From a virus (Duplodnaviria; Caudoviricetes): DNA of 58,085 nucleotides. The translations under genes and the position numbers were made by a program. This document shows, one piece after another, positions 3,079-36,715 of the stretch. Every line of letters begins with the position of its first letter. The stretch's first letter is position 1. The DNA lies in the IMG/VR virus record IMGVR_UViG_3300045256_000822, positions 1 through 58,085 of that record, one strand, 5' to 3'. Below the pieces are notes generated by a model. It searched no databases and was not told the origin of the DNA. It worked only from the letters and a program-made list of their open reading frames with translations.

Positions 3079-3140
3079 CGCGATCCGTCGGGCGAATCGC
3101 CCCTTCTCGTCAGTGCGGCCGCGGCATGACCGAACTATGA

Positions 3141-3572
3141 TCATGACACCGACGGCATCCCGCCGCTTCCGACTGTTCGCATCATGGCGAGCATCGACCG
3201 ACGCACCTTCGCATCCTTGATCCGATAGTAGGCACTTACCAATTTTACTGTCTCGCGCGATGCCATTGGATCGTCGGTTTTGGCTTGCGTAGTGTCGTGC
3301 GGCTTGAAGCGCCGAGCACTCGATCGCGTCTCTTCGAAGAACCAACCGACCGTCACGTCGAGCACCTGGGCGAGGGCATAGAGCCGGCTAGCCGACACGC
3401 GGTTGGTGCCGCGCTCGTATTTCTGGAGCTGCTGGAATGACACGCCGATGTCTTTGGCGAGCTTGTCCTGGCTGAGCCCAAGCAGCGTGCGGCGCAGGCG
3501 GATCCGCGAGCCGACGTGAATGTCGACCGGATCGGGATCGTCGTATCTCTGACCTCTATTGAGCTTTGGCAT
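3141..3572 (-). CDS. XRE-family transcriptional regulator (alphaproteobacterial PraR/PhrR-like)
   Basis: PDPVDIHVGSRIRLRR...SQDKLA...VSFQQLQKYERGTNRVSASRL; RBS AGGAG before ATG 3572. Confidence 0.9.
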   Translation of the reverse strand: MPKLNRGQRYDDPDPVDIHVGSRIRLRRTLLGLSQDKLAKDIGVSFQQLQKYERGTNRVSASRLYALAQVLDVTVGWFFEETRSSARRFKPHDTTQAKTDDPMASRETVKLVSAYYRIKDAKVRRSMLAMMRTVGSGGMPSVS

Positions 3573-3855
3573 CTGTCTCTCCTGTGGTTGACTGCGTTGC
3601 TGGGCCTGCGTCGTATGGGACCTGTTCGGCTTGTTCGGGGTCACGGGGAAGCTCCGCGGCGAGCTGCCGTAGGCGATCGCGATGCCTATCCACCCACTTC
3701 AGAGTGGCGAGCACTGCTTCCATATTCGCGATGCGCTGATCTGCCTCCGCTTGATCCATGTCCTTGGTGTGGACGCGTTTTGCGTAGACGTTGCGCCGCA
3801 GCCCGATCTCACGGCCGACCTCCTTAATCTGCTCAGCAATAGGGACAGCGGGCAT
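3556..3855 (-). CDS. Conserved phage hypothetical protein
   Basis: Operonic spacing; EQIKEVGREIGLRRNVY motif typical of small phage proteins. Confidence 0.75.
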   Translation of the reverse strand: MPAVPIAEQIKEVGREIGLRRNVYAKRVHTKDMDQAEADQRIANMEAVLATLKWVDRHRDRLRQLAAELPRDPEQAEQVPYDAGPATQSTTGETDAKAQ

Positions 3856-5379: not shown

Positions 5380-5777
5380 CGGATCAGCCCCGCAGCGAGC
5401 CGCGCACGGTGGATGATCCGCATGCCGGCGGCCGTGTCGCCAGACACGCGCCAGAGCGCCGCGGCGATCGCGCGCGCGTCGAGCCCCATGTCACGGAAGT
5501 GCTTCTCGTCGTCGCCGGAGGCGTGCGCCGCCTCGTGCTCCGCGCGGGTCACCGGCACCGCGTCCTTATCCTTGTTCGTCCGGCCCATGCCCTTCGGCAG
5601 GCCGTCGAGGTTGCCCAGGAGGTGGTGCGCGTCCCCGCACGGCTCGATGCCGCTCACGATCGACGGCAGCGTCTTCAGCCAGTCGAGGTGCTTCTGCGAC
5701 ATGCCGGGCGTGCGGGACCGCCGGCGCTGAGTGACGCCGATCGGCAGGGCCGACTTATCGATGCGTGGCGCGCGCAT
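5376..5777 (-). CDS. DUF968-like / HNH-like putative nuclease
   Basis: HLDWLKTLP...DAHHL...AVPVTRAEH...H pattern; TGATG coupling to upstream gene. Confidence 0.65.
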   Translation of the reverse strand: MRAPRIDKSALPIGVTQRRRSRTPGMSQKHLDWLKTLPSIVSGIEPCGDAHHLLGNLDGLPKGMGRTNKDKDAVPVTRAEHEAAHASGDDEKHFRDMGLDARAIAAALWRVSGDTAAGMRIIHRARLAAGLIR

Positions 5778-6517
5778 CAGGCGTTGAACCCGTGCTTGGC
5801 GAACTGAGCGAAGGTCTCTTCCCGGAAGCTCCGGCTCATCTGCTGCGAATACTGGATTTCGAGAGGACTCGCGGCGCGCTCGAGGGCCAGGTACACGCCT
5901 AGCGACTGAGCCCGTTCCATCATCCTCGCGAGGAGGTCCTTGAAGGTATCGACAGCGTTGCTCAGTTTTTGGATGTACTCGCGGTCTGGCGCCGTCTGTA
6001 TCAGCGCCGGCGGCATTTGCGGGTGATAGGAGTAGAGGTCCGCGCGATCGAGGTCGGCGATCCAGATTTGGCCCTGTACTTGCGGCTTGTATTCGGGCGC
6101 GGCGCCGTCGAGCAGGTAGCCCAGGTGCACATGCTGGCTGGGGCATTTGATCTCCAGCGCAATGCGCCGATCCTTGCCGTCCATCACCAATCGGTCGGGG
6201 CTGAAGCCGACCGAGCCGTCGTCCGTCGTGATGAATCCGACCTTGATAGTCTTCTTCTCGATGTGGAACTCGTATTGCCGAACGGCGTCGTCCTCAAGCT
6301 CCTTGCCGCGCTCCATCCACTCCTGCCCGTCGATAGTCGCGCTGGGCATGTTGAGGAGCTTTTCCGCGCAGAGCCGCAGTGCGTACTTGTAGGCGGACGC
6401 GGATAGCTCGCACTTCTTCGGCGTCACAATCTGGTCGAAGCACGAGGCAGTCGGGATGCCGAGCCGGAGCTTGAACCACTCGGGCGAACCTTGTTCGACG
6501 TCGGCGTAGATCTTCAT
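5777..6517 (-). CDS. YqaJ / lambda-exonuclease family protein
   Basis: QGSPEWFKLRLGIPTAS, RGKELE, SPDRL, LEIKCP, QVQGQ motifs; ATGA overlap at 6514-6517. Confidence 0.92.
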   Translation of the reverse strand: MKIYADVEQGSPEWFKLRLGIPTASCFDQIVTPKKCELSASAYKYALRLCAEKLLNMPSATIDGQEWMERGKELEDDAVRQYEFHIEKKTIKVGFITTDDGSVGFSPDRLVMDGKDRRIALEIKCPSQHVHLGYLLDGAAPEYKPQVQGQIWIADLDRADLYSYHPQMPPALIQTAPDREYIQKLSNAVDTFKDLLARMMERAQSLGVYLALERAASPLEIQYSQQMSRSFREETFAQFAKHGFNA

Positions 6518-6762
6518 GACACCAGCCTGTAGCCGGTGCTGCTCGACTTGAACCGAGGCAGCTTGATCTTCGTGGCATGGCCGACAGCCGTCCATCCGGC
6601 CGGCCGGATGGCGTTGTATCGGCCTCGTCCGGGCCCGGCATTGTCACGATCCCGAACTACGACACAGTGAGCGTAATCGCCATCTATCCGTTCAACGGGG
6701 ACCTGACGACCGGCAGCGCGCTTATCGTTGTCAGCCCATATCTGCCCCACAGCGACGGTCAC
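6514..6762 (-). CDS. Small hypothetical phage protein (SH3-like, DUF6354-like)
   Basis: VGQIWADNDKR...STGYRLV; translationally coupled on both sides. Confidence 0.7.
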   Translation of the reverse strand: MTVAVGQIWADNDKRAAGRQVPVERIDGDYAHCVVVRDRDNAGPGRGRYNAIRPAGWTAVGHATKIKLPRFKSSSTGYRLVS

Positions 6763-7607
6763 GGCGCCACCTTCTTCTGTCGCTTCGTCAGCAGCATGTT
6801 CTTCGCCGGGATGTAATTGGCGCGCTGCAGCTCGCCGATGTGCTGGATGCCGAAGGTGCCGGCGAACTTGCGTTCGTCCGTGCCGGTCTCCTCGATAAGC
6901 TTCTGCAGCTCGGCGATCTGCTCATTGGTGATGCGTTGGATGCCGGCGAGTTTCGCGTCATCGTCCTCACCTTCGGTCACGATGTTGAGGGCGGCCGTAG
7001 CGGCGTAGCGCTTGCCGTAGGACATGGCCGAGCCCCAGCCCTGAATGCTGTTCTTGCCCCCGCTCGAATCGCAGGGGACGGGTGGGCCGGCGGTCTCGGT
7101 CGAATGGCCGGCCGAGTGGCGAAGGATGGCGACCATGGTCAGTGCGCCATCCGTGCGCTCACTGCGGAACGAGAGGGCGAACCCGTGCTCTGCGAGGATC
7201 GGCCTGATCGCGTCGTCGATCGCCTCCCAGGTCGCGTAGCGCGACACCAGCTTCTGCTCGCCATCCGGGTCGTTCTTGTTCTTCGGATAGGTGAGCGCGC
7301 CGCCCTTCTTGATCCGTGGCAGCTTCTGCTGCATGGCGAGGAACGCCGTGTTGAAAGCGGATTCGGCCTGCCGCGCCTCCATGCGCTCTTGCATTTTCAA
7401 GAGGGCTTCCATCTTGGTGACGTCGACGGCGGGATCTCGTGCAAGCCGGATGATCGCTGGTAGGAGCGACGTCGGCTCCGGCTCGACGAGGGCAGGGGGC
7501 GGCGCTTCGGTTGCGGGTACGACCGCATTACCGGCTGGCTCGGTCGCCGCAGCGGGCTCCTCGATCACAGCCGCGGGCTCTTCAAGAAGGGCGGGGACGG
7601 TGTTCAT
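6759..7607 (-). CDS. erf: ERF-family single-strand annealing protein
   Basis: GSAMSYGKRYAATAALNIVTEGEDDD ERF signature; adjacent to exonuclease. Confidence 0.92.
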   Translation of the reverse strand: MNTVPALLEEPAAVIEEPAAATEPAGNAVVPATEAPPPALVEPEPTSLLPAIIRLARDPAVDVTKMEALLKMQERMEARQAESAFNTAFLAMQQKLPRIKKGGALTYPKNKNDPDGEQKLVSRYATWEAIDDAIRPILAEHGFALSFRSERTDGALTMVAILRHSAGHSTETAGPPVPCDSSGGKNSIQGWGSAMSYGKRYAATAALNIVTEGEDDDAKLAGIQRITNEQIAELQKLIEETGTDERKFAGTFGIQHIGELQRANYIPAKNMLLTKRQKKVAP

Positions 7608-7755
7608 GGGCTCTTGGCTCCGTTGACGGGTTGGGAGGCTCGCCGGCGCGTGACAGACGCGCAGCGCCGGGCAGGAAGCCGCAGCGGCGGCATTTCCGCC
7701 GGCCGTCCTTGCGCTTCCGAATCTTGCGCTGTCCGCATCGTGGGCAGCTCGTCAT
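7582..7755 (-). CDS. 57-aa zinc-ribbon protein (not in ORF track)
   Basis: Manual translation MTSCPRCGQRKIRKRKDGRRKCRRCGF...: two CxxC; AAAGG upstream. Confidence 0.6.
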   Translation of the reverse strand: MTSCPRCGQRKIRKRKDGRRKCRRCGFLPGAARLSRAGEPPNPSTEPRAHEHRPRPS

Positions 7756-7760
7756 GGCAA

Positions 7761-7940
7761 CCTTTGAAATCGACGGGATTAGGGAGGAGGGCCTTCGCCC
7801 TGGGCCTCACGGCCCTCCTCCTGCATCCCGCTCGCGAGAGATCGAAGATCTCGAGCGAGTCATGAGAGTTGCGAATGCAACTCTCAGGGAGCCGCTCCTG
7901 TGAGGCTGAGGGCACCAGGTCACAGCTCCCAGTCGAAAGG
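7761..7940 (-). ncRNA. Putative ~180-nt multi-branch structured RNA
   Basis: Closing stem plus four contiguous stem-loop arms fill the whole intergenic gap; minus-strand loops include GTGA and CTTCG. Confidence 0.6.
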
Positions 7941-8375
7941 TCAGTCGGCGGCGGCAGCCGATTTCGCCTCGCCGTTCATGGCAGCGATCGGCAGCGCCTT
8001 GATCGTGTCGAGATGATTGGCAAGCAGCGAGCCCGCGAGGTCTTCGCGTTTCTTCCGCAGTTCCGCGCGCTTGATTTCCTGAATGGCGGCCGCTTCCTGG
8101 GCGAGCGTCTGCTCGTAGGCGGCGCGATCGACCTTGCCGATGATCCACTTCACCTGAACGCTGGAGTCGAAGTCGACGTCGACATCGGGTTCGACCACCT
8201 TGACCACCGTCATGTTGTGACGGGTGTCGGTTGGCACGACAACGAAGTCGCCCGCCTTGATCGCCTCGTCGAGCGTCTTGAAGATGGTCCGCGGCGCGTT
8301 GTCACCCTGTTCATAGGTGCACGCGAGTGCGCGCACGTGCTTGTTGATCAGAAAAACGGCTGTTGAGTAGTTCAT
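7941..8375 (-). CDS. Conserved phage hypothetical protein
   Basis: MNYSTAVFLINK... with GAGAGGA RBS; coding-like codon usage. Confidence 0.8.
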   Translation of the reverse strand: MNYSTAVFLINKHVRALACTYEQGDNAPRTIFKTLDEAIKAGDFVVVPTDTRHNMTVVKVVEPDVDVDFDSSVQVKWIIGKVDRAAYEQTLAQEAAAIQEIKRAELRKKREDLAGSLLANHLDTIKALPIAAMNGEAKSAAAAD

Positions 8376-8534
8376 CGGTCGGTCCTCTCTCTCCGGTGTG
8401 ATGGACGTGGTCGCCGCGCGGAACGCGGTCAGTTCAACTCGCTCCGATAGGTGGCGCCGCGCATGTGCAGCGCGAGGCACCGCTGCCAGAGTGGCGTGTG
8501 GCGGGTGAGGAACCGGGCGAGGAGGCGGCGGAGC

Positions 8535-8753
8535 CTAGGCATTGCACGCCTTCTCCAGCCGGCCGACAGCGTTGGAGATATCGTCGATGAACCGCGCAAT
8601 TTCGTCGCCTAGACCAAGCGCGCCCTCGTCGGCACCGTCGATCTGCTCTTGGAAGCCGCGGGCGATCCGCAGGAGGTCGTCAACGCGGGCCCGATCGCGG
8701 CGCCGCAGCGCGTCCTGATTCTCCTCCTGGGACGCGTCCTCACGCGTCATCAT
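8535..8753 (-). CDS. Hypothetical protein
   Basis: ATGA-coupled in the leftward early operon. Confidence 0.6.
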   Translation of the reverse strand: MMTREDASQEENQDALRRRDRARVDDLLRIARGFQEQIDGADEGALGLGDEIARFIDDISNAVGRLEKACNA

Positions 8754-9007
8754 GGGAGCCGCCGCAGGGCATCGAGCGTCAAGCAGCGATCGAGCGCCTC
8801 GCGGGGCGTCAGGCCGGTCTTTACGACCCCCTCGACGTACTCGGTATCCGTGATGCCCTGACGAAGATAGGCGGCGCCCAGCTGAGCGCGCTTCAGATAG
8901 CGGCCGATCTCGGTGAGCGGGGGGTCAGGCAGGTCTACCGCTGCCAGCCCGACCGGCTGCGCGCCGTCATCGAAAACCAAGACCGGATAAAGCTCGGGCT
9001 GGGCCAT
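8750..9007 (-). CDS. Hypothetical protein, first gene of the leftward early operon
   Basis: GGGAGGG RBS before ATG 9007; directly downstream of PL-like promoter. Confidence 0.65.
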   Translation of the reverse strand: MAQPELYPVLVFDDGAQPVGLAAVDLPDPPLTEIGRYLKRAQLGAAYLRQGITDTEYVEGVVKTGLTPREALDRCLTLDALRRLP

Positions 9008-9041
9008 GGTCCCTCCCGCACACAATTGTGCGTTGAGGGAA

Positions 9042-9070
9042 AGTCTGGCAGTCCGGTCTTACGTCGTCAA
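9042..9070 (-). promoter_or_regulatory. PL-like promoter TTGACG-N17-CAGACT
   Basis: -35 at 9070-9065, 17-nt spacer, -10 at 9047-9042; -35 overlapped by the operator. Confidence 0.6.
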
Positions 9071-9083
9071 GACATATTGTCTT
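9069..9083. promoter_or_regulatory. OL-like operator AAGACA-TAT-TGTCTT
   Basis: Palindrome with 6-bp arms; 14 bp identical (inverted) to 9523-9536. Confidence 0.75.
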
Positions 9084-9103
9084 AAGAAATTCGGCCTTTT
9101 TGG

Positions 9104-9385
9104 CTACTCGGCCAGGTCGATCTTGTTGAGGGGGAGGAGCTTCGGGCGCTCGCCGGGCCCGAACACGAGTCGGTCAATGTCTATACCGAACAGGTAGGCC
9201 AGTCGCACGAGGTCGCCGGGGGAGAGGCTGCGTTGACCTCGTTCGACTTTTCCCAAGTAATCGTCAGAAATACCCAAAGAACCCGCGACTTCCTTACGAT
9301 CCCAGCCGCGATCTTTGCGTAATTTTGCAACGTTCTCGCCTATTCGTTGAGCGACTTGCTTTTCAAACGCTTGGCGGTTCTTCAC
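9104..9385 (-). CDS. CI-like XRE repressor (HTH only, no peptidase domain)
   Basis: IGENVAKLRKDRGWDRKEVAGSLGISDDYLGKVERG; divergent from Cro-like gene; flanked by operators. Confidence 0.8.
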   Translation of the reverse strand: MKNRQAFEKQVAQRIGENVAKLRKDRGWDRKEVAGSLGISDDYLGKVERGQRSLSPGDLVRLAYLFGIDIDRLVFGPGERPKLLPLNKIDLAE

Positions 9386-9511
9386 CGGATTGGCCTCCGA
9401 TCGCCTCTGTTACTGAACTACCAGCATTTTTCGCCGACTGCGTAAAGGGGGGCCGATTAACTCTCCTACCGGTCATGTCGCTCGTGCCGTCGATGATAGG
9501 TACATCGGGTC

Positions 9512-9541
9512 TTGTCTTGGTCAGACAATATGTCTTATCAT
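9512..9541 (+). promoter_or_regulatory. PR-like promoter (TTGTCT-N18-TATCAT) with OR operator CAGACAATATGTCTT at 9522-9536
   Basis: Operator lies in the spacer; -10 is 7 nt before the cro ATG; a divergent TATCAT at 9498-9493 may be PRM. Confidence 0.6.
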
Positions 9542-9548
9542 CCGTGGC

Positions 9549-9788
9549 ATGACGGACCTTTGGGCAACCATAGATCGAATCGCGGCGAAACTTGGTGCGA
9601 CGGAGCGCAACCGGGCGAAATGGCGCCAGCGCGGTGTTCCGCACCGTTGGCGGCTCCCGATCCTCCAGGCGGCGGCTAAGGCAGGCATCTTGCTCGATGC
9701 TTCGGCTTTCGAGGCCCGGGCGAAGCGCAAATCCGCACCGCGCAAGGGCCGCCGTGCTGAATCTCTGGGCCTTCAGTCGGCGGGATGA
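9549..9788 (+). CDS. Cro-like repressor
   Basis: Short HTH-like IAAKLGATERNRAKWRQRGVPHRW; divergent from CI-like gene. Confidence 0.75.
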   Translation: MTDLWATIDRIAAKLGATERNRAKWRQRGVPHRWRLPILQAAAKAGILLDASAFEARAKRKSAPRKGRRAESLGLQSAG

Positions 9789-10072
9789 GGAATGGGCGTC
9801 GTCAGCTCATTCCCGTTCGATCGCGCGCGCGAGGGCGTTAACCCTACGCGCCAGCGGAGCACAGTCACCGGCAATGTCAGCCGCGACGGCCTGCAGGCGC
9901 TCCACTACCCGCATCCGGTCGGCATAGCGGATCTGTTCGACGCTACTGCCGACCTGTTCGTCCTGGGCCTTGCCGTTGGCGCGGCATCGGCCCTGATCTT
10001 CGGCACTCTGCTGCATTCGATGGCTGCCGTTCTTCACGCCTCGAAACGTACGAGCGTGAGGGACGGAGTCCT

Positions 10073-10519
10073 ATGTCCGAAAAGGGAAGGCGAATGACTG
10101 CCGCGGTGGCGCACATTGCGGGCAGTCGCATCGCGCTGTTCTTGCAGCGTGAGTACGAGCGGCCACGGGCCAAGCTGATCGCGAACGATTTCAGCGTCGA
10201 TGACCGCACTGCGAAGTCGTGGCTGAAGACCGGCAAGGTTTCCCCTGCGCACTGGCACGCTATGGTCCAACGCTGGGGCCGGCGCTTCATCGCCTTTGTC
10301 TATGAGCCCGAATTCGACTGGGCCCGCCAGATGCTGCTGGCCGATGAACTGGAGCGCGCTGAAGCGCGCCTCGCGGAGTTACGCCTCAAGCTCGAGGGAA
10401 ACACTGATGCTGCGTCACTTGTTGGCGAGGTTCGCGCAGTGGCGCATGGCACGCCTGCTCAAGCGGGCACGCCACTGGGAGCGCCTGGTACTGCGCCTGG
10501 TCGAGGGGGCGCGCGATGA
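10073..10519 (+). CDS. CII-like / HTH phage regulator
   Basis: AKLIANDFSVDDRTAKSWL HTH-like; coiled-coil tail; position after cro. Confidence 0.55.
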   Translation: MSEKGRRMTAAVAHIAGSRIALFLQREYERPRAKLIANDFSVDDRTAKSWLKTGKVSPAHWHAMVQRWGRRFIAFVYEPEFDWARQMLLADELERAEARLAELRLKLEGNTDAASLVGEVRAVAHGTPAQAGTPLGAPGTAPGRGGAR

Positions 10520-34849: not shown

Positions 34850-36715
34850 ATGAGCGCACAGCGAGCACTTCCGGACTTCGAGATCTGGCGGGCCGGCTAT
34901 GCCGGCGCCCAGGTCTTCGTCTTCATCGCCGGCACGACAACGCTGGCCAGTCTTTTCACGGACGAGGCCCTGACCGTCCCGGCCGCGAACCCGCAGGTGC
35001 TCGGCACGCTGACGATCCTCGGCGTTACCTACGGCCGCCTGAACGCACCGGTCTACACGAGCCAGGCGGTCGAGTGGGAGATCAACGGTTCGCGAACCGG
35101 TACGATCCGGCCACCGATCACGGCCATGCAGGGGATCGATGTCTCACGCGCTCTGGTGACGGCGACGGGCGGCAGCAATCCGCGCGATCTGCGCGATATC
35201 GTTGCCAATGTCGTCAACGTCGAGGACTATGGCGTCATCGGCACGTCGGCAGCTACGAACACGGTGGCGCTCAATGCCGCGATCGGCGTCGTCGCAGCGC
35301 GCAACGGCGGCGCCGTCATCCTACCGGAAGGTTCCATCCCTTTCACAACCCTGACCCTGCCGGCCGGCGTCATCCTCGTCGGGCAAGGTCGCGGCGTGAC
35401 GATGCTGGAGAGCACGACGAACGACCGCGTCATCGTGCTCGGTGGCGACCGCGCAGGGCTCGCCACACTCACGCTCGACGGCATCAATCTGATTCCCGCG
35501 TCGGTCGGCATCTTCGCGAAGGGCCGTTCCGAGACCCGGCTCTATGATGTCGAGGTTCGACGCTTCGAGACCGGCATCCACTGCCGCGGCGGCCGCCGTT
35601 CGGACTGGCGGGATCTCTACATCACCAACTGCATCACCGGCGCTAAGCTGCATGGCGACTTGGCCGGCCTGGACGGCGGGGGTGGCGACGAGTGGACCCA
35701 TAATGCGTGGGTCGGCGGGCGCATCGTCCAGTGCACCGGTATCGGCGTCGAACTGTCCTACGAGGACACGTTCTGCCGTCAGAACGCTTTTGTGGATGTG
35801 GGATTCGAGACGAATACGGGCATCGCGCTGAAAGTAAACGGCGCCCGCTTCACGCAGCTGCGCGATGTCTGGATGGACGGTAACACCACCAATCTCAGCA
35901 TGCTCGACGACGACAACGTCGCCAAGGCACTGGAGAACACCGTCCAGAACTTGCAGTGGCGCGGCGGCAGCATCCGCGGCGGCGCCATCCTGCTCCGGGA
36001 CACGCTGCTCGATGTGATCTTCGAGGGATTGAACCTCCGGGGTGTCGCTTTCACCCTCACGGTGCCGAAGAACAACATCCTGCTGCTCGACTGCGTCGAG
36101 GATGCGGCGGTCACCATCGCCGGCAGCGGTCAGTATCTCCTGCGCTTCGAGTCCATAGCCGACGGCGCCTCGACCGGCCTGACGACGGACGCGGCGGCGA
36201 CAAAGGCATGGGCGACGGGCGAGCTTGCGCCCGGCCAGGTCGTCTATCTCGAGGGCAAGGCGATCGGCAACCAGAGGAACGGCCTCAATACGGCGGCGTA
36301 CCACTTCTCGGTTTCCGCCAAGCGGCCGGGTTCGCAGCTCCCCTACGACACACAGACCGCGAATTTCACGGTGGGGGCGATCGTCACCGGCCAGACTTCG
36401 GGCGCCACGGCCAGGATCATCGCGGACGCGGATGCCGGCGCGACCGGCACGCTGACCTTGCGCGACATCGTCGGCGTGTTCGTCGACAACGAGATCATCA
36501 CGGACTCGAGCGGCGGTGCGGCACTCGTGAACGGCGTGCTCATCCCTCAGAACGTCGTCCTGACCGGAGCCGTGACCCGGATCCGCGACTTCGAGGACGT
36601 GGTGGGATGGGACGCGGCATTCGTCGCCAACGGTCCCGAAGTCGAGATGCGCGTGACGGGTGCCGCTGCAACGACGATCGAGTGGACTACCTACGCTTCG
36701 GTCGTAAGCACCTGA
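34850..36715 (+). CDS. Tailspike with pectate-lyase-like beta-helix
   Basis: VNVEDYG...T.ALNAAI...GG.V.LPEG...V.LVGQG cap followed by beta-helix repeats. Confidence 0.8.
   Translation: MSAQRALPDFEIWRAGYAGAQVFVFIAGTTTLASLFTDEALTVPAANPQVLGTLTILGVTYGRLNAPVYTSQAVEWEINGSRTGTIRPPITAMQGIDVSRALVTATGGSNPRDLRDIVANVVNVEDYGVIGTSAATNTVALNAAIGVVAARNGGAVILPEGSIPFTTLTLPAGVILVGQGRGVTMLESTTNDRVIVLGGDRAGLATLTLDGINLIPASVGIFAKGRSETRLYDVEVRRFETGIHCRGGRRSDWRDLYITNCITGAKLHGDLAGLDGGGGDEWTHNAWVGGRIVQCTGIGVELSYEDTFCRQNAFVDVGFETNTGIALKVNGARFTQLRDVWMDGNTTNLSMLDDDNVAKALENTVQNLQWRGGSIRGGAILLRDTLLDVIFEGLNLRGVAFTLTVPKNNILLLDCVEDAAVTIAGSGQYLLRFESIADGASTGLTTDAAATKAWATGELAPGQVVYLEGKAIGNQRNGLNTAAYHFSVSAKRPGSQLPYDTQTANFTVGAIVTGQTSGATARIIADADAGATGTLTLRDIVGVFVDNEIITDSSGGAALVNGVLIPQNVVLTGAVTRIRDFEDVVGWDAAFVANGPEVEMRVTGAAATTIEWTTYASVVST

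What the first reader, a model, noticed from the sequence alone, without database searches (positions are those of the whole stretch)
7761..7940. ~180-nt closed multi-branch RNA in the early leftward operon that sequesters the next RBS
Seen (plus-strand text): TCGAC(7770)/GTCGA(7932) and CCTTT(7761)/AAAGG(7936) close the element. Four abutting arms lie inside: (1) CGGGAT..GGAGG[AGGGC-CTTC-GCCCT][GGGCC-TCAC-GGCCC]TCCTCC..ATCCCG; (2) CTCGC..GAGATC-GAA-GATCTC..GCGAG; (3) perfect TGAGAGTTGC-GAAT-GCAACTCTCA; (4) GGGAGC..TGTGA..TCACA-GCTCCC. Almost every base can pair. It begins exactly at the upstream stop codon, and its 3' AAAGG is the likely SD of the zinc-ribbon gene upstream of erf. It also contains CCUCCUCCC, the alphaproteobacterial cuckoo sRNA motif, here in a stem. 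Inference: an undescribed phage ncRNA, a put-like antiterminator, a processing element or a translational switch for the recombination genes.
Basis: partly seen in the sequence, partly recalled or inferred. Interest (0 to 1): 0.75.

Follow-up and report, generated by a model that had tools for sequence, protein, structure and literature searches.

The report
New kissing-loop RNA family in phages
The intergenic stretch is a real, strongly conserved four-hairpin RNA whose first and last hairpin loops pair with each other; it belongs to a phage RNA family that matches no catalogued RNA family, and its function is still unknown.

Summary
Window 7771-7932 (minus-strand sense) folds into four hairpins (MFE z -6.4).

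The same RNA occurs in 65 of 67 related phage, prophage and metagenome loci searched with my covariance model, as 69 copies. One of them is the cultured Caulobacter phage Kuura.

- **Helices:** 94.2% of cells are paired against 56.2% when shuffled, and 47 of 48 pairs show compensatory changes.
the loops of hairpins H1 and H4 form a two-segment kissing interaction, which was not in the model. It is 91.3% paired against 80.8% shuffled and 35-56% when slid.
- **No known family:** no Rfam 15 match in the window or in 17 relatives.
- **Context:** the RNA nearly always lies between a conserved gene of unknown function ("gene A") and a small basic zinc-ribbon gene. A trimmed variant sits just upstream of a terminase-large-like gene.

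Function is inferred only. My preferred reading is an RNA partner of the module's proteins. Rivals are a cis-regulator, a ribozyme or an antiterminator.

The parts
7771..7932 (-). Full match to the RNA family model (four hairpins H1-H4, 162 model positions)
   Evidence: cmsearch with R1 gives 106.8 bits, E 7.9e-23. With R2 it gives 132.7 bits, E 7.6e-32. It is the only hit in the 58-kb window.
7887..7930 (-). H1. Outer stem 7930-7922/7895-7887 with a conserved U-G wobble. GA/A internal loop. Inner stem 7919-7916/7900-7897. 15-nt loop 7915-7901.
   Evidence: MFE fold. Helices 1 and 2 are 93.6% and 98.4% paired, and 11 of 12 pairs show changes on both sides.
7863..7886 (-). H2. Perfect 10-bp stem with loop C-AUUC-G (loop 7876-7873). 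The stem sequence differs in nearly every relative, while the loop is nearly constant.
   Evidence: Inverted repeat I9. Helix 3 has 10 of 10 pairs with compensatory change and is 95.9% paired. Loop counts are CAUGCG 45, CAUUCG 11, CAUACG 3, CAUAUG 3 and other 7, of 69.
7831..7859 (-). H3. Hairpin with a symmetric UC/UC internal loop.
   Evidence: Inverted repeat I6. Helices 4 and 5 are 90.1% and 90.9% paired, and all 10 pairs covary. The UC/UC loop is seen in 16 of 69 members.
7774..7830 (-). H4. Lower stem 7830-7826/7778-7774. Internal loop. G-rich upper stem 7821-7811/7793-7783. 17-nt loop 7810-7794.
   Evidence: MFE fold. Helices 6-8 are 90.6%, 98.3% and 93.3% paired, and all 16 pairs covary.
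7901..7906 (-). Kissing segment a, H1-loop side (GCCUCA). It pairs with 7809-7804 (UGAGGC) in the H4 loop.
   Evidence: pair I4. helices 2 and 3: pair types switch between C-G and U-A (33 against 21) and between U-A and C-G (32 against 24). Loop listing.
7804..7809 (-). Kissing segment a, H4-loop side.
7910..7913 (-). Kissing segment b, H1-loop side (GCCC). It pairs with 7800-7797 (GGGC) in the H4 loop.
   Evidence: helix 1: 91.2% paired, and 3 of 4 pairs show changes on both sides.
7797..7800 (-). Kissing segment b, H4-loop side.
7932..7940 (-). 5' strand of the window-specific closing helix (CCUUUCGAC). Its partners are 7774-7770 and 7765-7761. It is not a family feature.
   Evidence: It is in the MFE. 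The window's z is -0.3, the median z over 67 relatives is 0.02, and 9 of 67 have z below -2.
7761..7764 (-). Likely Shine-Dalgarno (AAGG) of the zinc-ribbon gene.
   Evidence: Read directly from the sequence. Relatives have GGAG/AGGA at the same place, mostly outside H4.
7582..7755 (-). Small basic zinc-ribbon gene (57 aa, C-x2-C-x14-C-x2-C) directly downstream of the RNA.
   Evidence: ORF. Only sub-threshold generic zinc-ribbon Pfam hits. A C..C...C..C ORF begins within 3-87 nt after the RNA in 44 of 65 loci.
7941..8375 (-). "Gene A" (144 aa from MNYSTAVF; an upstream GTG would give 179 aa). It is the constant upstream partner of the RNA.
   Evidence: PHROG 13551, unknown function. 50 of 52 distinct gene-A loci carry the RNA directly downstream. 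The AF2 model is a beta-barrel plus a long helix, and the best fold match is the PriA N-terminal 3'-end-binding domain at Z 6.2, which is weak.
6759..7607 (-). Erf-family single-strand annealing protein (operon context).
   Evidence: PF04404, E 2.2e-17. phrog_155, E 4.9e-43.
5777..6595 (-). YqaJ-type exonuclease (operon context).
   Evidence: PF09588, E 4.1e-21.

Best explanation
**Shown.** Window 7771-7932 (minus-strand sense) is one copy of a previously uncatalogued family of phage RNAs about 140-190 nt long (138-189 nt among the copies found). The family has four hairpins. The loops of the first (H1) and last (H4) hairpin pair with each other in two segments of 5-7 bp and 4 bp. This clasps the two arms into one compact body. 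H2 and H3 project from the middle. No promoter-like or terminator-like site was found next to the RNA.

**Inferred mechanism.** The RNA is transcribed as part of the early leftward operon message. It folds on its own, independently of its flanks. It then acts as a structured RNA partner (RNP subunit or specific ligand) of the proteins it is inherited with:
- always the upstream "gene A" product, a beta-barrel that weakly resembles the nucleic-acid 3'-end-binding domain of PriA, plus a long helix;
- usually the downstream arginine/lysine-rich zinc-ribbon protein.

On this reading the nearly constant H2 loop (C-AUNC-G) and the H3 UC/UC internal loop are module-specific protein-recognition sites. 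The H1-H4 kissing core is the generic functional part, because it alone is kept in a variant that sits in front of a terminase-large-like gene. It is not a switch that hides the next ribosome-binding site in a closing helix.

**Odds.** I put a real, conserved, sense-strand structured RNA with the kissing interaction at about 0.95. I put the RNP/protein-partner mechanism at about 0.4. The confidence given below is for the whole statement.
For: **The structure is real**
- MFE z is -6.39.
- Each relative folds into the same four hairpins without any alignment.
- Unconstrained MFE recovers a median 91% of the model pairs. 53 of 69 recover at least 80%, and 58 of 69 have z below -3.
- On 69 RNAs from 65 loci, 94.2% of cells are paired against 56.2% shuffled and 41-46% slid. 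47 of 48 pairs show compensatory change. The covariation score is 0.776 against 0.173.

**The kissing interaction is real.** It was not part of the covariance model, so the alignment was not fitted to it.
- 91.3% of cells are paired against 80.8% shuffled (0 of 500 shuffles reach it) and 35-56% slid.
- 92 cells have a change on both sides against 28.2 in shuffles (also on 42 RNAs).
- Paired switches are visible directly: GCCUCAC/GUGAGGC, GCCCCAC/GUGGGGU, GUCUCAC/GUGAGAC, CACACC/GGUGUG.

**Strand**
- Significant hits lie only on the coding strand of the flanking genes. The best reverse-strand hit has E 0.0079.
- G-U pairs are frequent, for example a U-G pair in 57 of 69 at one position.

**Linkage to the neighbouring genes**
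- 50 of 52 distinct gene-A loci have the RNA directly after the stop codon.
- 11 of 16 further loci, found by an RNA sequence pattern alone, have gene A upstream.
- Phage Kuura has two units after its gene-A homologue.
- A zinc-ribbon ORF starts 3-87 nt after the RNA in 44 of 65 loci.

**The RNA acts as its own module**
- Tandem copies, 0-20 nt apart, occur in L014, L091, L098 and Kuura.
- Three distinct sequences (5 loci) keep H1, H4 and the kissing loops but have other middle arms. They lie about 10 nt upstream of a terminase-large-like ORF (phrog_2, E 1e-18).
- The constant H2 loop is missing exactly in those three.

**Other**
- No promoter-like or terminator-like site was found on the minus strand near the element.
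- Gene A fold: Foldseek top hits are PriA (prob 0.96-0.98, E 0.16). VIA-align gives Z 6.2 and 5.5 to the PriA N-terminal domain. The Atlas also lists PriA_3primeBD clusters.
Against: - No experiment or RNA-seq bears on it. No RNA run holding this sequence was listed.
- Protein binding is inferred only from gene linkage and from conserved loops.
- The PriA-3'BD likeness is weak (E 0.16, Z about 6). Z below 8 can mean only a common arrangement.
- The RNA abuts the next start codon in both contexts. The model end lies typically 0-16 nt from the start (my ORF calls there were rough). That fits a cis-acting translational element just as well.
- The RNA persists where no zinc-ribbon gene follows, as in Kuura, L014 and L031. 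It also exists without gene A in the terminase context. So neither protein is strictly required.
- The nested-helix alignment was fitted to the model, which inflates the paired percentages.
- Intramolecular and intermolecular loop pairing cannot be told apart from sequences.
Confidence: 0.42

Rival explanations
1. Cis-acting leader of the downstream gene. The compact RNA sits directly 5' of the start codon of the zinc-ribbon gene, or of the terminase-large-like gene in the variant. It would tune that gene's translation or message stability. One way is as an operator bound by the basic zinc-ribbon protein itself, giving autoregulation like ribosomal-protein or T4 gp32 leaders or Mu Com (these examples are recalled). 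Another is as a 5' protective or processing structure.
For: The start codon typically lies 0-16 nt after the model end (rough ORF calls). A zinc-ribbon ORF follows in 44 of 65 loci. In the terminase context the ORF starts about 10 nt after the RNA. In a few loci the SD-like purines fall inside the 3' strand of the H4 lower stem (L026 and L069). No independent promoter or terminator was found.
Against: The closing helix and RBS sequestration are not conserved, and the SD is mostly unpaired. In tandem copies only the distal unit touches a start codon. The RNA is kept where no zinc-ribbon gene follows. The downstream genes (zinc ribbon, terminase) share no function. Linkage to the upstream gene A (50 of 52) is tighter than to any downstream gene.
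Confidence: 0.25
2. A new class of self-cleaving or otherwise catalytic RNA that processes the polycistronic message. The kissing loops would hold the active fold together, as loop-loop contacts do in hammerhead ribozymes.
For: The fold is complex and tertiary-clasped with conserved unpaired nucleotides: the GA/A internal loop and U-G wobble in H1, and the G...GAA/GUA residues flanking the kissing segments in the H4 loop. It occurs in unrelated intergenic contexts of phage operons and in tandem copies. That distribution is typical of the small self-cleaving ribozymes found in phages (recalled).
Against: No nucleotide outside helices is invariant. The best unpaired positions are 83-96% conserved in 69 RNAs. 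The junctions are not conserved. At 140-190 nt it is large for a self-cleaver. No Rfam ribozyme family matches. No data on RNA ends exist.
Confidence: 0.12
3. Processive antitermination RNA, as in the reader's put-like idea. The nascent folded RNA would bind the transcribing polymerase and let it read through terminators of the long early operon, and in the variant the late (terminase) operon.
For: It is sense-strand, co-transcribed and folds on its own. It appears in an early operon and, as a variant, at the head of packaging genes. Both are places where lambdoid phages use antitermination (recalled).
Against: It lies about 1.2-1.5 kb and several genes downstream of the likely early promoter region, which I place near 9400-9550 by inference. 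The scan saw no terminator-like sites on the minus strand downstream within 6500-10200. HK022 put is two hairpins of about 70 nt in all (recalled), which is a very different architecture. Tight linkage to gene A is unexplained.
Confidence: 0.06
4. DNA-level signal. The hairpins would form in single-stranded DNA of the sense strand and serve as a priming or primosome-assembly type site for the replication and recombination genes around it.
For: The neighbours are Erf and a YqaJ exonuclease. Gene A weakly resembles the PriA 3'-end-binding domain. Both strands of the window element fold well.
Against: The orientation always matches transcription. Many conserved G-U pairs would be G-T in that DNA strand and A-C mismatches on the other. 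Long-range loop-loop covariation is typical of RNA tertiary structure. The variant sits in front of a terminase gene.
Confidence: 0.05
5. Not a functional element: a chance GC-rich fold, a palindromic repeat or MITE, or part of a protein-coding ORF (7604..7915).
For: The window is GC-rich, and a 103-aa ORF spans the element.
Against: z is -6.4. It is conserved with compensatory changes in 65 loci. It is single-copy in the window and in two genomes. The ORF has no protein family. 36 of 69 homologues have no open sense frame across the RNA.
Confidence: 0.01

Closest known systems
RNAs whose two arms are clasped by loop-loop pairing (purine and lysine riboswitch aptamers, natural hammerheads). 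Recalled, not tested beyond Rfam.
   Same: Two helices rising from a common junction are tied together by Watson-Crick pairs between their terminal loops. The overall size is similar to the lysine aptamer.
   Different: No Rfam match to any of them. The junction nucleotides and a closing helix are not conserved. The kissing is much longer (two segments, about 10-11 bp). There is no metabolic gene context.
phi29-type packaging RNA (pRNA, an Rfam family). Properties recalled.
   Same: A phage-encoded RNA of about 120-170 nt with complementary loops that covary between phages. One variant of the present RNA lies next to a terminase gene.
   Different: No Rfam hit at all, so none to pRNA. pRNA loops pair between molecules to build a ring on the prohead and are known only in phi29-like phages. 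Most copies here lie in the early recombination operon, not in a packaging context.
Autoregulatory or translational leaders bound by small nucleic-acid-binding proteins (Mu Com on com-mom mRNA, T4 gp32 pseudoknot, ribosomal-protein leaders). Recalled; gp32 is also mentioned in passages of PMC10690425.
   Same: A structured RNA directly 5' of a small, very basic zinc-ribbon gene within a phage operon.
   Different: The RNA persists without a following zinc-ribbon gene and occurs in tandem. It is linked more tightly to the upstream gene. The zinc ribbon reaches no Pfam family cut-off.
UG27 reverse-transcriptase-associated ncRNA arrays of prophages (bioRxiv 10.64898/2026.09.22.753630; passages and section 9 read).
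   Same: Prophage-borne units of about 150-167 nt that are diverse in sequence but conserved in structure, carry a pseudoknot, and sometimes stand in arrays.
   Different: No reverse transcriptase (PF00078) in the 58-kb record. That paper describes one main hairpin interrupted by an asymmetric internal loop, and hosts mainly in Bacteroidota and Bacillota. Here there are four hairpins and at most two units.
Recalled.
   Same: A cis-encoded, self-folding RNA in a phage early operon.
   Different: put is two hairpins of about 70 nt just downstream of the early promoters. This RNA is about 160 nt with four hairpins and a kissing interaction, and it lies several genes into the operon. No functional test was possible.
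Properties recalled.
   Same: The window copy contains CCUCCUCCC.
   Different: Here the string is the paired 3' strand of the H4 stem and changes in relatives. No Rfam family matched.

Membership tests
Any Rfam 15 family (4227 models, including the ribozyme, riboswitch and phage RNA families it holds) | Covariance-model score at or near the family's gathering threshold | tested here: not met
   Window 7300-8400, both strands: the best hits are 14.9-20.9 bits against thresholds of 39-105, with E at least 0.28. In 17 diverse relatives (38 kb) the only hits were an unrelated tRNA in L057 and one junk miRNA hit.
Cuckoo sRNA family | Several hairpins presenting the CCUCCUCCC anti-SD motif in loops (recalled definition) | tested here: not met
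   The motif lies in a stem (7793-7783 region) and is not conserved in relatives. No Rfam hit.
MITE / REP-type intergenic repeat | Many dispersed copies per genome | tested here: not met
   One copy in the 58-kb record. One copy in each of two MAG genomes of 3.8 and 5.2 Mb. 0 of 151 sampled genomes of one bacterial class (a sample scored with strict filters).
MITE / REP-type intergenic repeat | Occurs in either orientation relative to flanking genes | tested here: not met
   All 69 significant matches are on the coding strand of the flanking genes.
Protein-coding sequence (ORF 7604..7915) | Conserved open frame and protein-family match | tested here: not met
   No Pfam or PHROG family. 36 of 69 homologous RNAs have stops in all three sense frames. 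The substitutions are pairwise compensatory.
HK022 put-type antiterminator RNA | Two adjacent hairpins (about 70 nt) close to the early promoter that make RNA polymerase terminator-resistant in cis (recalled) | not testable with these tools
   The architecture differs (four hairpins plus a kissing interaction, about 160 nt). The activity cannot be tested in silico.
phi29-type pRNA | Match to the Rfam pRNA model; intermolecular loop pairing forming a ring on the prohead (recalled) | tested here: not met
   No Rfam hit. Whether the loops pair within or between molecules cannot be told from sequences.
Riboswitch (generic) | Conserved ligand pocket (junction or internal-loop nucleotides) plus an expression platform that alternates with the aptamer | tested here: inconclusive
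   The junctions are not conserved. No conserved alternative pairing with the RBS. A ligand cannot be excluded.
Reverse-transcriptase-associated template ncRNA (retron / UG27 type) | A reverse transcriptase gene in the same locus | tested here: not met
   PF00078 was not found in the 58-kb record, with positive controls firing. The record is estimated to be 78% complete.

The most novel reading that the evidence does not exclude
The element is the founding member of a new class of catalytic or RNP-forming phage RNA. It would be either a new self-cleaving ribozyme whose active fold is locked by a double kissing loop, or the RNA subunit of an unknown three-part phage machine: a PriA-3'BD-like protein, a roughly 160-nt RNA and a basic zinc ribbon. 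That machine would act on nucleic-acid ends in replication and recombination, or in counter-defence.
Probability: 0.3. Interest if true: 0.9.

Novelty: categorically new. Interest (0 to 1): 0.72.

Why it matters
Large RNAs that are clasped by tertiary contacts and carry heavy covariation are rare. Those that have been studied have mostly turned out to be ribozymes, riboswitches or RNP scaffolds (recalled generalisation).

This one is found in phage contigs from many metagenomes. It is also present, in two copies, in a cultured and harmless phage-host pair (Caulobacter phage Kuura), so it can be tested at the bench straight away.

It also gives the first functional handle on two phage gene families of unknown function: gene A (PHROG 13551) and the small basic zinc-ribbon gene beside the Erf/exonuclease recombination genes.

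The family itself appears to be new, with no Rfam 15 match. Its functional category is unresolved. A fragment may sit unnamed in the 2023 catalogue of 8,495 candidate viral RNAs (PMC10690425), whose alignment files I could not read.

Tried and rejected
- **blastn of the element.** Searches against plasmid and phage collections gave only chance hits of 24-44 nt.
- **MAFFT alignments of the intergenic regions** (A2-A4). The variable stems were misaligned, so I seeded a covariance model from three near-identical relatives instead.
- **Sequencing runs.** No RNA holder was listed; only DNA or metagenome holders were.
- **Complex prediction of gene A with the zinc ribbon.** No verdict: score 0.00 and the controls were not run.
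- **Pfam for gene A.** None. A PDB sequence search with the gene-A profile hit only coiled-coil-like chains at E of at least 0.019.
- **Zinc ribbon.** Only sub-threshold generic zinc-ribbon hits.
- **Earlier findings of this scan.** Nothing at this place or for these sequences. The word search returned unrelated leaders in other genomes.
- **Literature.** Four full-text searches found no description of this RNA. The Kuura paper (PMC9959647) was seen only in the search listing.
- **The Fremin 2023 catalogue.** Passages were read. Its alignment archives could not be unpacked, and one table was not searched. Absence from that catalogue is therefore not shown.
- **Genome sample.** 151 genomes of one bacterial class gave 0 matches. 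This is a sample scored with strict filters, so it does not show absence.
- **Rejected ideas:** chance fold, MITE, coding ORF, cuckoo sRNA, and RBS sequestration by a closing helix.
Full report
**1. What is in the window**

The genes around the finding run on the minus strand:
- an HTH regulator gene at 9104-9385;
- two small ORFs;
- "gene A" at 7941-8375 (PHROG 13551, function unknown);
- the 185-nt gap at 7756-7940;
- a 57-aa zinc-ribbon gene at 7582-7755;
- an Erf annealing-protein gene at 6759-7607;
- a YqaJ exonuclease gene at 5777-6595.

The record is an IMG/VR provirus of 58 kb. The RNA sense is therefore the minus strand.

As RNA, 7750-7950 folds to -105.3 kcal/mol. Dinucleotide shuffles give -74.9 +/- 4.8, so z is -6.39 and 0 of 200 shuffles fold as well. 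The plus strand gives z -5.96.

The repeat finder also reported a 14-nt complementarity between 7797-7810 and 7900-7913 (pair I4).

**2. It is a conserved family**

The element itself has no blastn relatives among phage or plasmid records. I therefore searched with the flanking gene A.
- Viral, genome and metagenome collections gave 89 loci with a gene-A match.
- 72 of these had the stop codon plus at least 150 nt downstream.
- 52 were distinct after removing 20 exact duplicates.

In 47 of the 52, the hexamer CAT[GTA]CG lies 37-78 nt after the gene-A stop. In 39 of 52, an ORF beginning M..C..C starts 130-308 nt after the stop.

Folded one at a time with no alignment, these gaps give the same four hairpins.

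I built a covariance model from three near-identical relatives (A6; 162 positions, 48 pairs). It found 42 full-length matches. I rebuilt it from those (R2).

R2 then found the RNA in 50 of the 52 distinct gene-A loci. L019 and L068 were missed, although by eye they show the same hairpins. R2 also matched four copies cut off by contig ends.

All matches lie on the gene strand. The only reverse-strand hit has E 0.0079.

**3. Copies found independently of gene A**

A short H1 sequence pattern matched 55 stretches of viral contigs. I searched 53 of them with R2, leaving out two that lie on the same contigs as L004 and L011.
- 16 loci hold 17 full-length copies.
- 11 of the 16 have a gene-A homologue immediately upstream (hmmsearch E 1e-30 to 1e-60).
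- The other 5 loci are 3 distinct sequences. They keep H1, H4 and the complementary loops but have different middle arms.
- These lie about 10 nt upstream of an ORF that matches terminase large subunit (phrog_2, E about 1e-18) and phrog_5902.

The only cultured phage with a gene-A homologue in the phage collection is Caulobacter phage Kuura. It carries two tandem units (E 5e-14 and 8e-10) in a 736-nt gap that has no annotated forward gene.

Tandem pairs, 0-20 nt apart, also occur in L014, L091 and L098.

**4. Covariation**

On 69 RNAs from 65 of 67 loci (A11):

| Measure | Observed | Shuffled | Slid partners |
|---|---|---|---|
| Cells forming a standard pair | 94.2% | 56.2% | 41-46% |
| Covariation score | 0.776 | 0.173 | 0.08-0.12 |

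47 of 48 pairs have changes on both sides, and no shuffle of 500 reached any observed measure. The H2 stem uses all four Watson-Crick pair types at most positions.

This alignment was fitted to the model, which favours the structure. Two checks are independent of that:
- Unconstrained single-sequence MFE folds contain a median 91% of the model pairs. 53 of 69 contain at least 80%.
- The loop-loop interaction was not in the model.

**5. The kissing interaction**

I mapped ten loop-loop pairs onto A11: H1-loop GCCC with H4-loop GGGC, and H1-loop GCCUCA with H4-loop UGAGGC.
- 91.3% of cells are paired, against 80.8% shuffled (0 of 500) and 35-56% slid.
- 92 cells have a change on both sides, against 28.2 in shuffles.
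- 8 of 10 pairs show such changes. The same was seen on 42 RNAs.

The raw loop listing shows the switches directly:
- GCCUCAC/GUGAGGC
- GCCCCAC/GUGGGGU
- GUCUCAC/GUGAGAC
- CUUCCAC/GUGGAAG
- GCGCCAC/GUGGCG
- CACACC/GGUGUG
- for the short segment: GCCC/GGGC, GUCC/GGAC, GCGC/GCGC and ACUU/AAGU

Sequences alone cannot say whether the loops pair within one molecule or between molecules.

**6. What is conserved and what is not**

Conserved:
- the H1 inner stem and its GA/A internal loop, with a U-G wobble in 57 of 69;
- the two kissing segments and the G and GAA/GUA residues beside them;
- the G-rich and C-rich strands of H4;
- the H2 loop: CAUGCG 45, CAUUCG 11, CAUACG 3, CAUAUG 3 and other 7, of 69.

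Not conserved:
- the junctions;
The duplex energy of the flanks against a shuffled 3' flank gives a median z of 0.02, 9 of 67 fall below -2, and the window itself gives -0.3;
- the two mini-hairpins at the H4 tip, possible in only 16 of 69;
- CCUCCUCCC.

The next start codon typically lies 0-16 nt after the model end (my ORF calls there were rough). The GGAG/AGGA Shine-Dalgarno mostly sits just outside H4. In a few loci (L026, L069) it sits inside the 3' strand of the lower stem.

**7. What it is not**
- **No Rfam 15 family.** No match in the window at E up to 10, nor in 17 diverse relatives.
- **Not a dispersed repeat.** One copy in the record, one per genome in two MAGs, and none in 151 sampled genomes of one class.
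- **Not coding.**
- **No reverse transcriptase** in the record. This sets it apart from the UG27 prophage ncRNA arrays described in a 2026 preprint.
- **No flanking signals.** No promoter-like or terminator-like sites flank it on the minus strand.

**8. The neighbours**

The AF2 model of gene A (mean pLDDT 79.6) is a five-stranded beta domain followed by a 44-residue helix.

Its best structural matches are the N-terminal 3'-end-binding domain of PriA:
- Foldseek E 0.16, prob 0.96-0.98.
- VIA-align Z 6.2 and 5.5, with the remaining rows matching only the long helix.
- The Atlas lists PriA_3primeBD-bearing clusters at low scores.

This is a lead, not a finding.

The zinc ribbon (C-x2-C-x14-C-x2-C with a Lys/Arg-rich linker) reaches no Pfam cut-off. 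A zinc-ribbon ORF follows the RNA within 3-87 nt in 44 of 65 loci. Several of the 16 loci scored as having none encode a second type of Cys-rich small protein with C-x-C spacing, which my pattern did not catch.

**9. Mechanism**

Shown: a sense-strand, self-folding, tertiary-clasped RNA inherited together with gene A and usually a basic zinc-ribbon gene.

Inferred:
- The RNA is a partner of these proteins.
- H2 and H3 are the module-specific recognition arms. They are lost exactly where gene A is absent.
- The H1-H4 core is the generic functional part.

I give this about 0.4.

A cis-acting leader of the downstream gene gets 0.25. It is favoured by the constant closeness to a start codon. It is disfavoured by tandem copies, by loci without the zinc-ribbon gene, and by the unpaired SD.

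The remaining rivals are a new ribozyme (0.12), an antiterminator (0.06) and an ssDNA signal (0.05).

**10. Novelty and limits**

Four literature searches found no description of this RNA. The 2023 catalogue of 8,495 candidate viral structured RNAs reports candidates of 29-151 nt with a mean of 67 (passages). It may contain a fragment under an anonymous number. Its alignment archives could not be read.

No expression data were available.

Noticed in passing
L113:888-1037 (= L107), L118:888-1040 (= L103), L127:786-938 (minus): A trimmed variant of the RNA keeps H1, H4 and the kissing loops but has different, shorter middle arms. It lies about 10 nt upstream of a terminase-large-like ORF (phrog_2, phrog_5902) instead of between gene A and a zinc-ribbon gene.
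   Followed up: partly
L151:3005-3740 (Caulobacter phage Kuura OQ067476.1, record 35058-35793): A 736-nt stretch has no annotated forward gene. It holds two tandem units of the RNA (3097-3259 and 3280-3445), followed by about 300 nt that I did not explain. The small antisense CDS Kuura_043 (locus 3477-3626) lies in that remainder.
   Followed up: partly
L014:3549-3865, L091:652-951, L098:726-1039: Two units of the RNA stand head to tail, 0-6 nt apart. The two units of a pair differ in stem sequences, so these are old duplications or independent acquisitions.
   Followed up: no
L057:896-967: A tRNA gene (Rfam tRNA, 62.7 bits) lies upstream of the gene A-RNA module in one related metagenome contig.
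   Followed up: no
L004:3590-3850, L011:3633-3923, L115/L130 (ORFs after the RNA): In some relatives the gene after the RNA encodes a second type of small Cys-rich protein (MSRCRC... / MRC.RC...DGWKRC..C) instead of the MASCPKCG type. It has no Pfam family (protein 8).
   Followed up: no
L006:3626-4000: Here the zinc-ribbon reading frame continues to 124 aa. This may be a fusion of the zinc ribbon with the following small gene.
   Followed up: no
window 9104-9385 (-) and 9549-9788 (+): A divergent pair consisting of an HTH regulator gene and a small ORF, with one promoter-like site at 9512-9541 (+). This is probably the immunity or early-control region from which the leftward operon carrying the RNA starts.
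   Followed up: no
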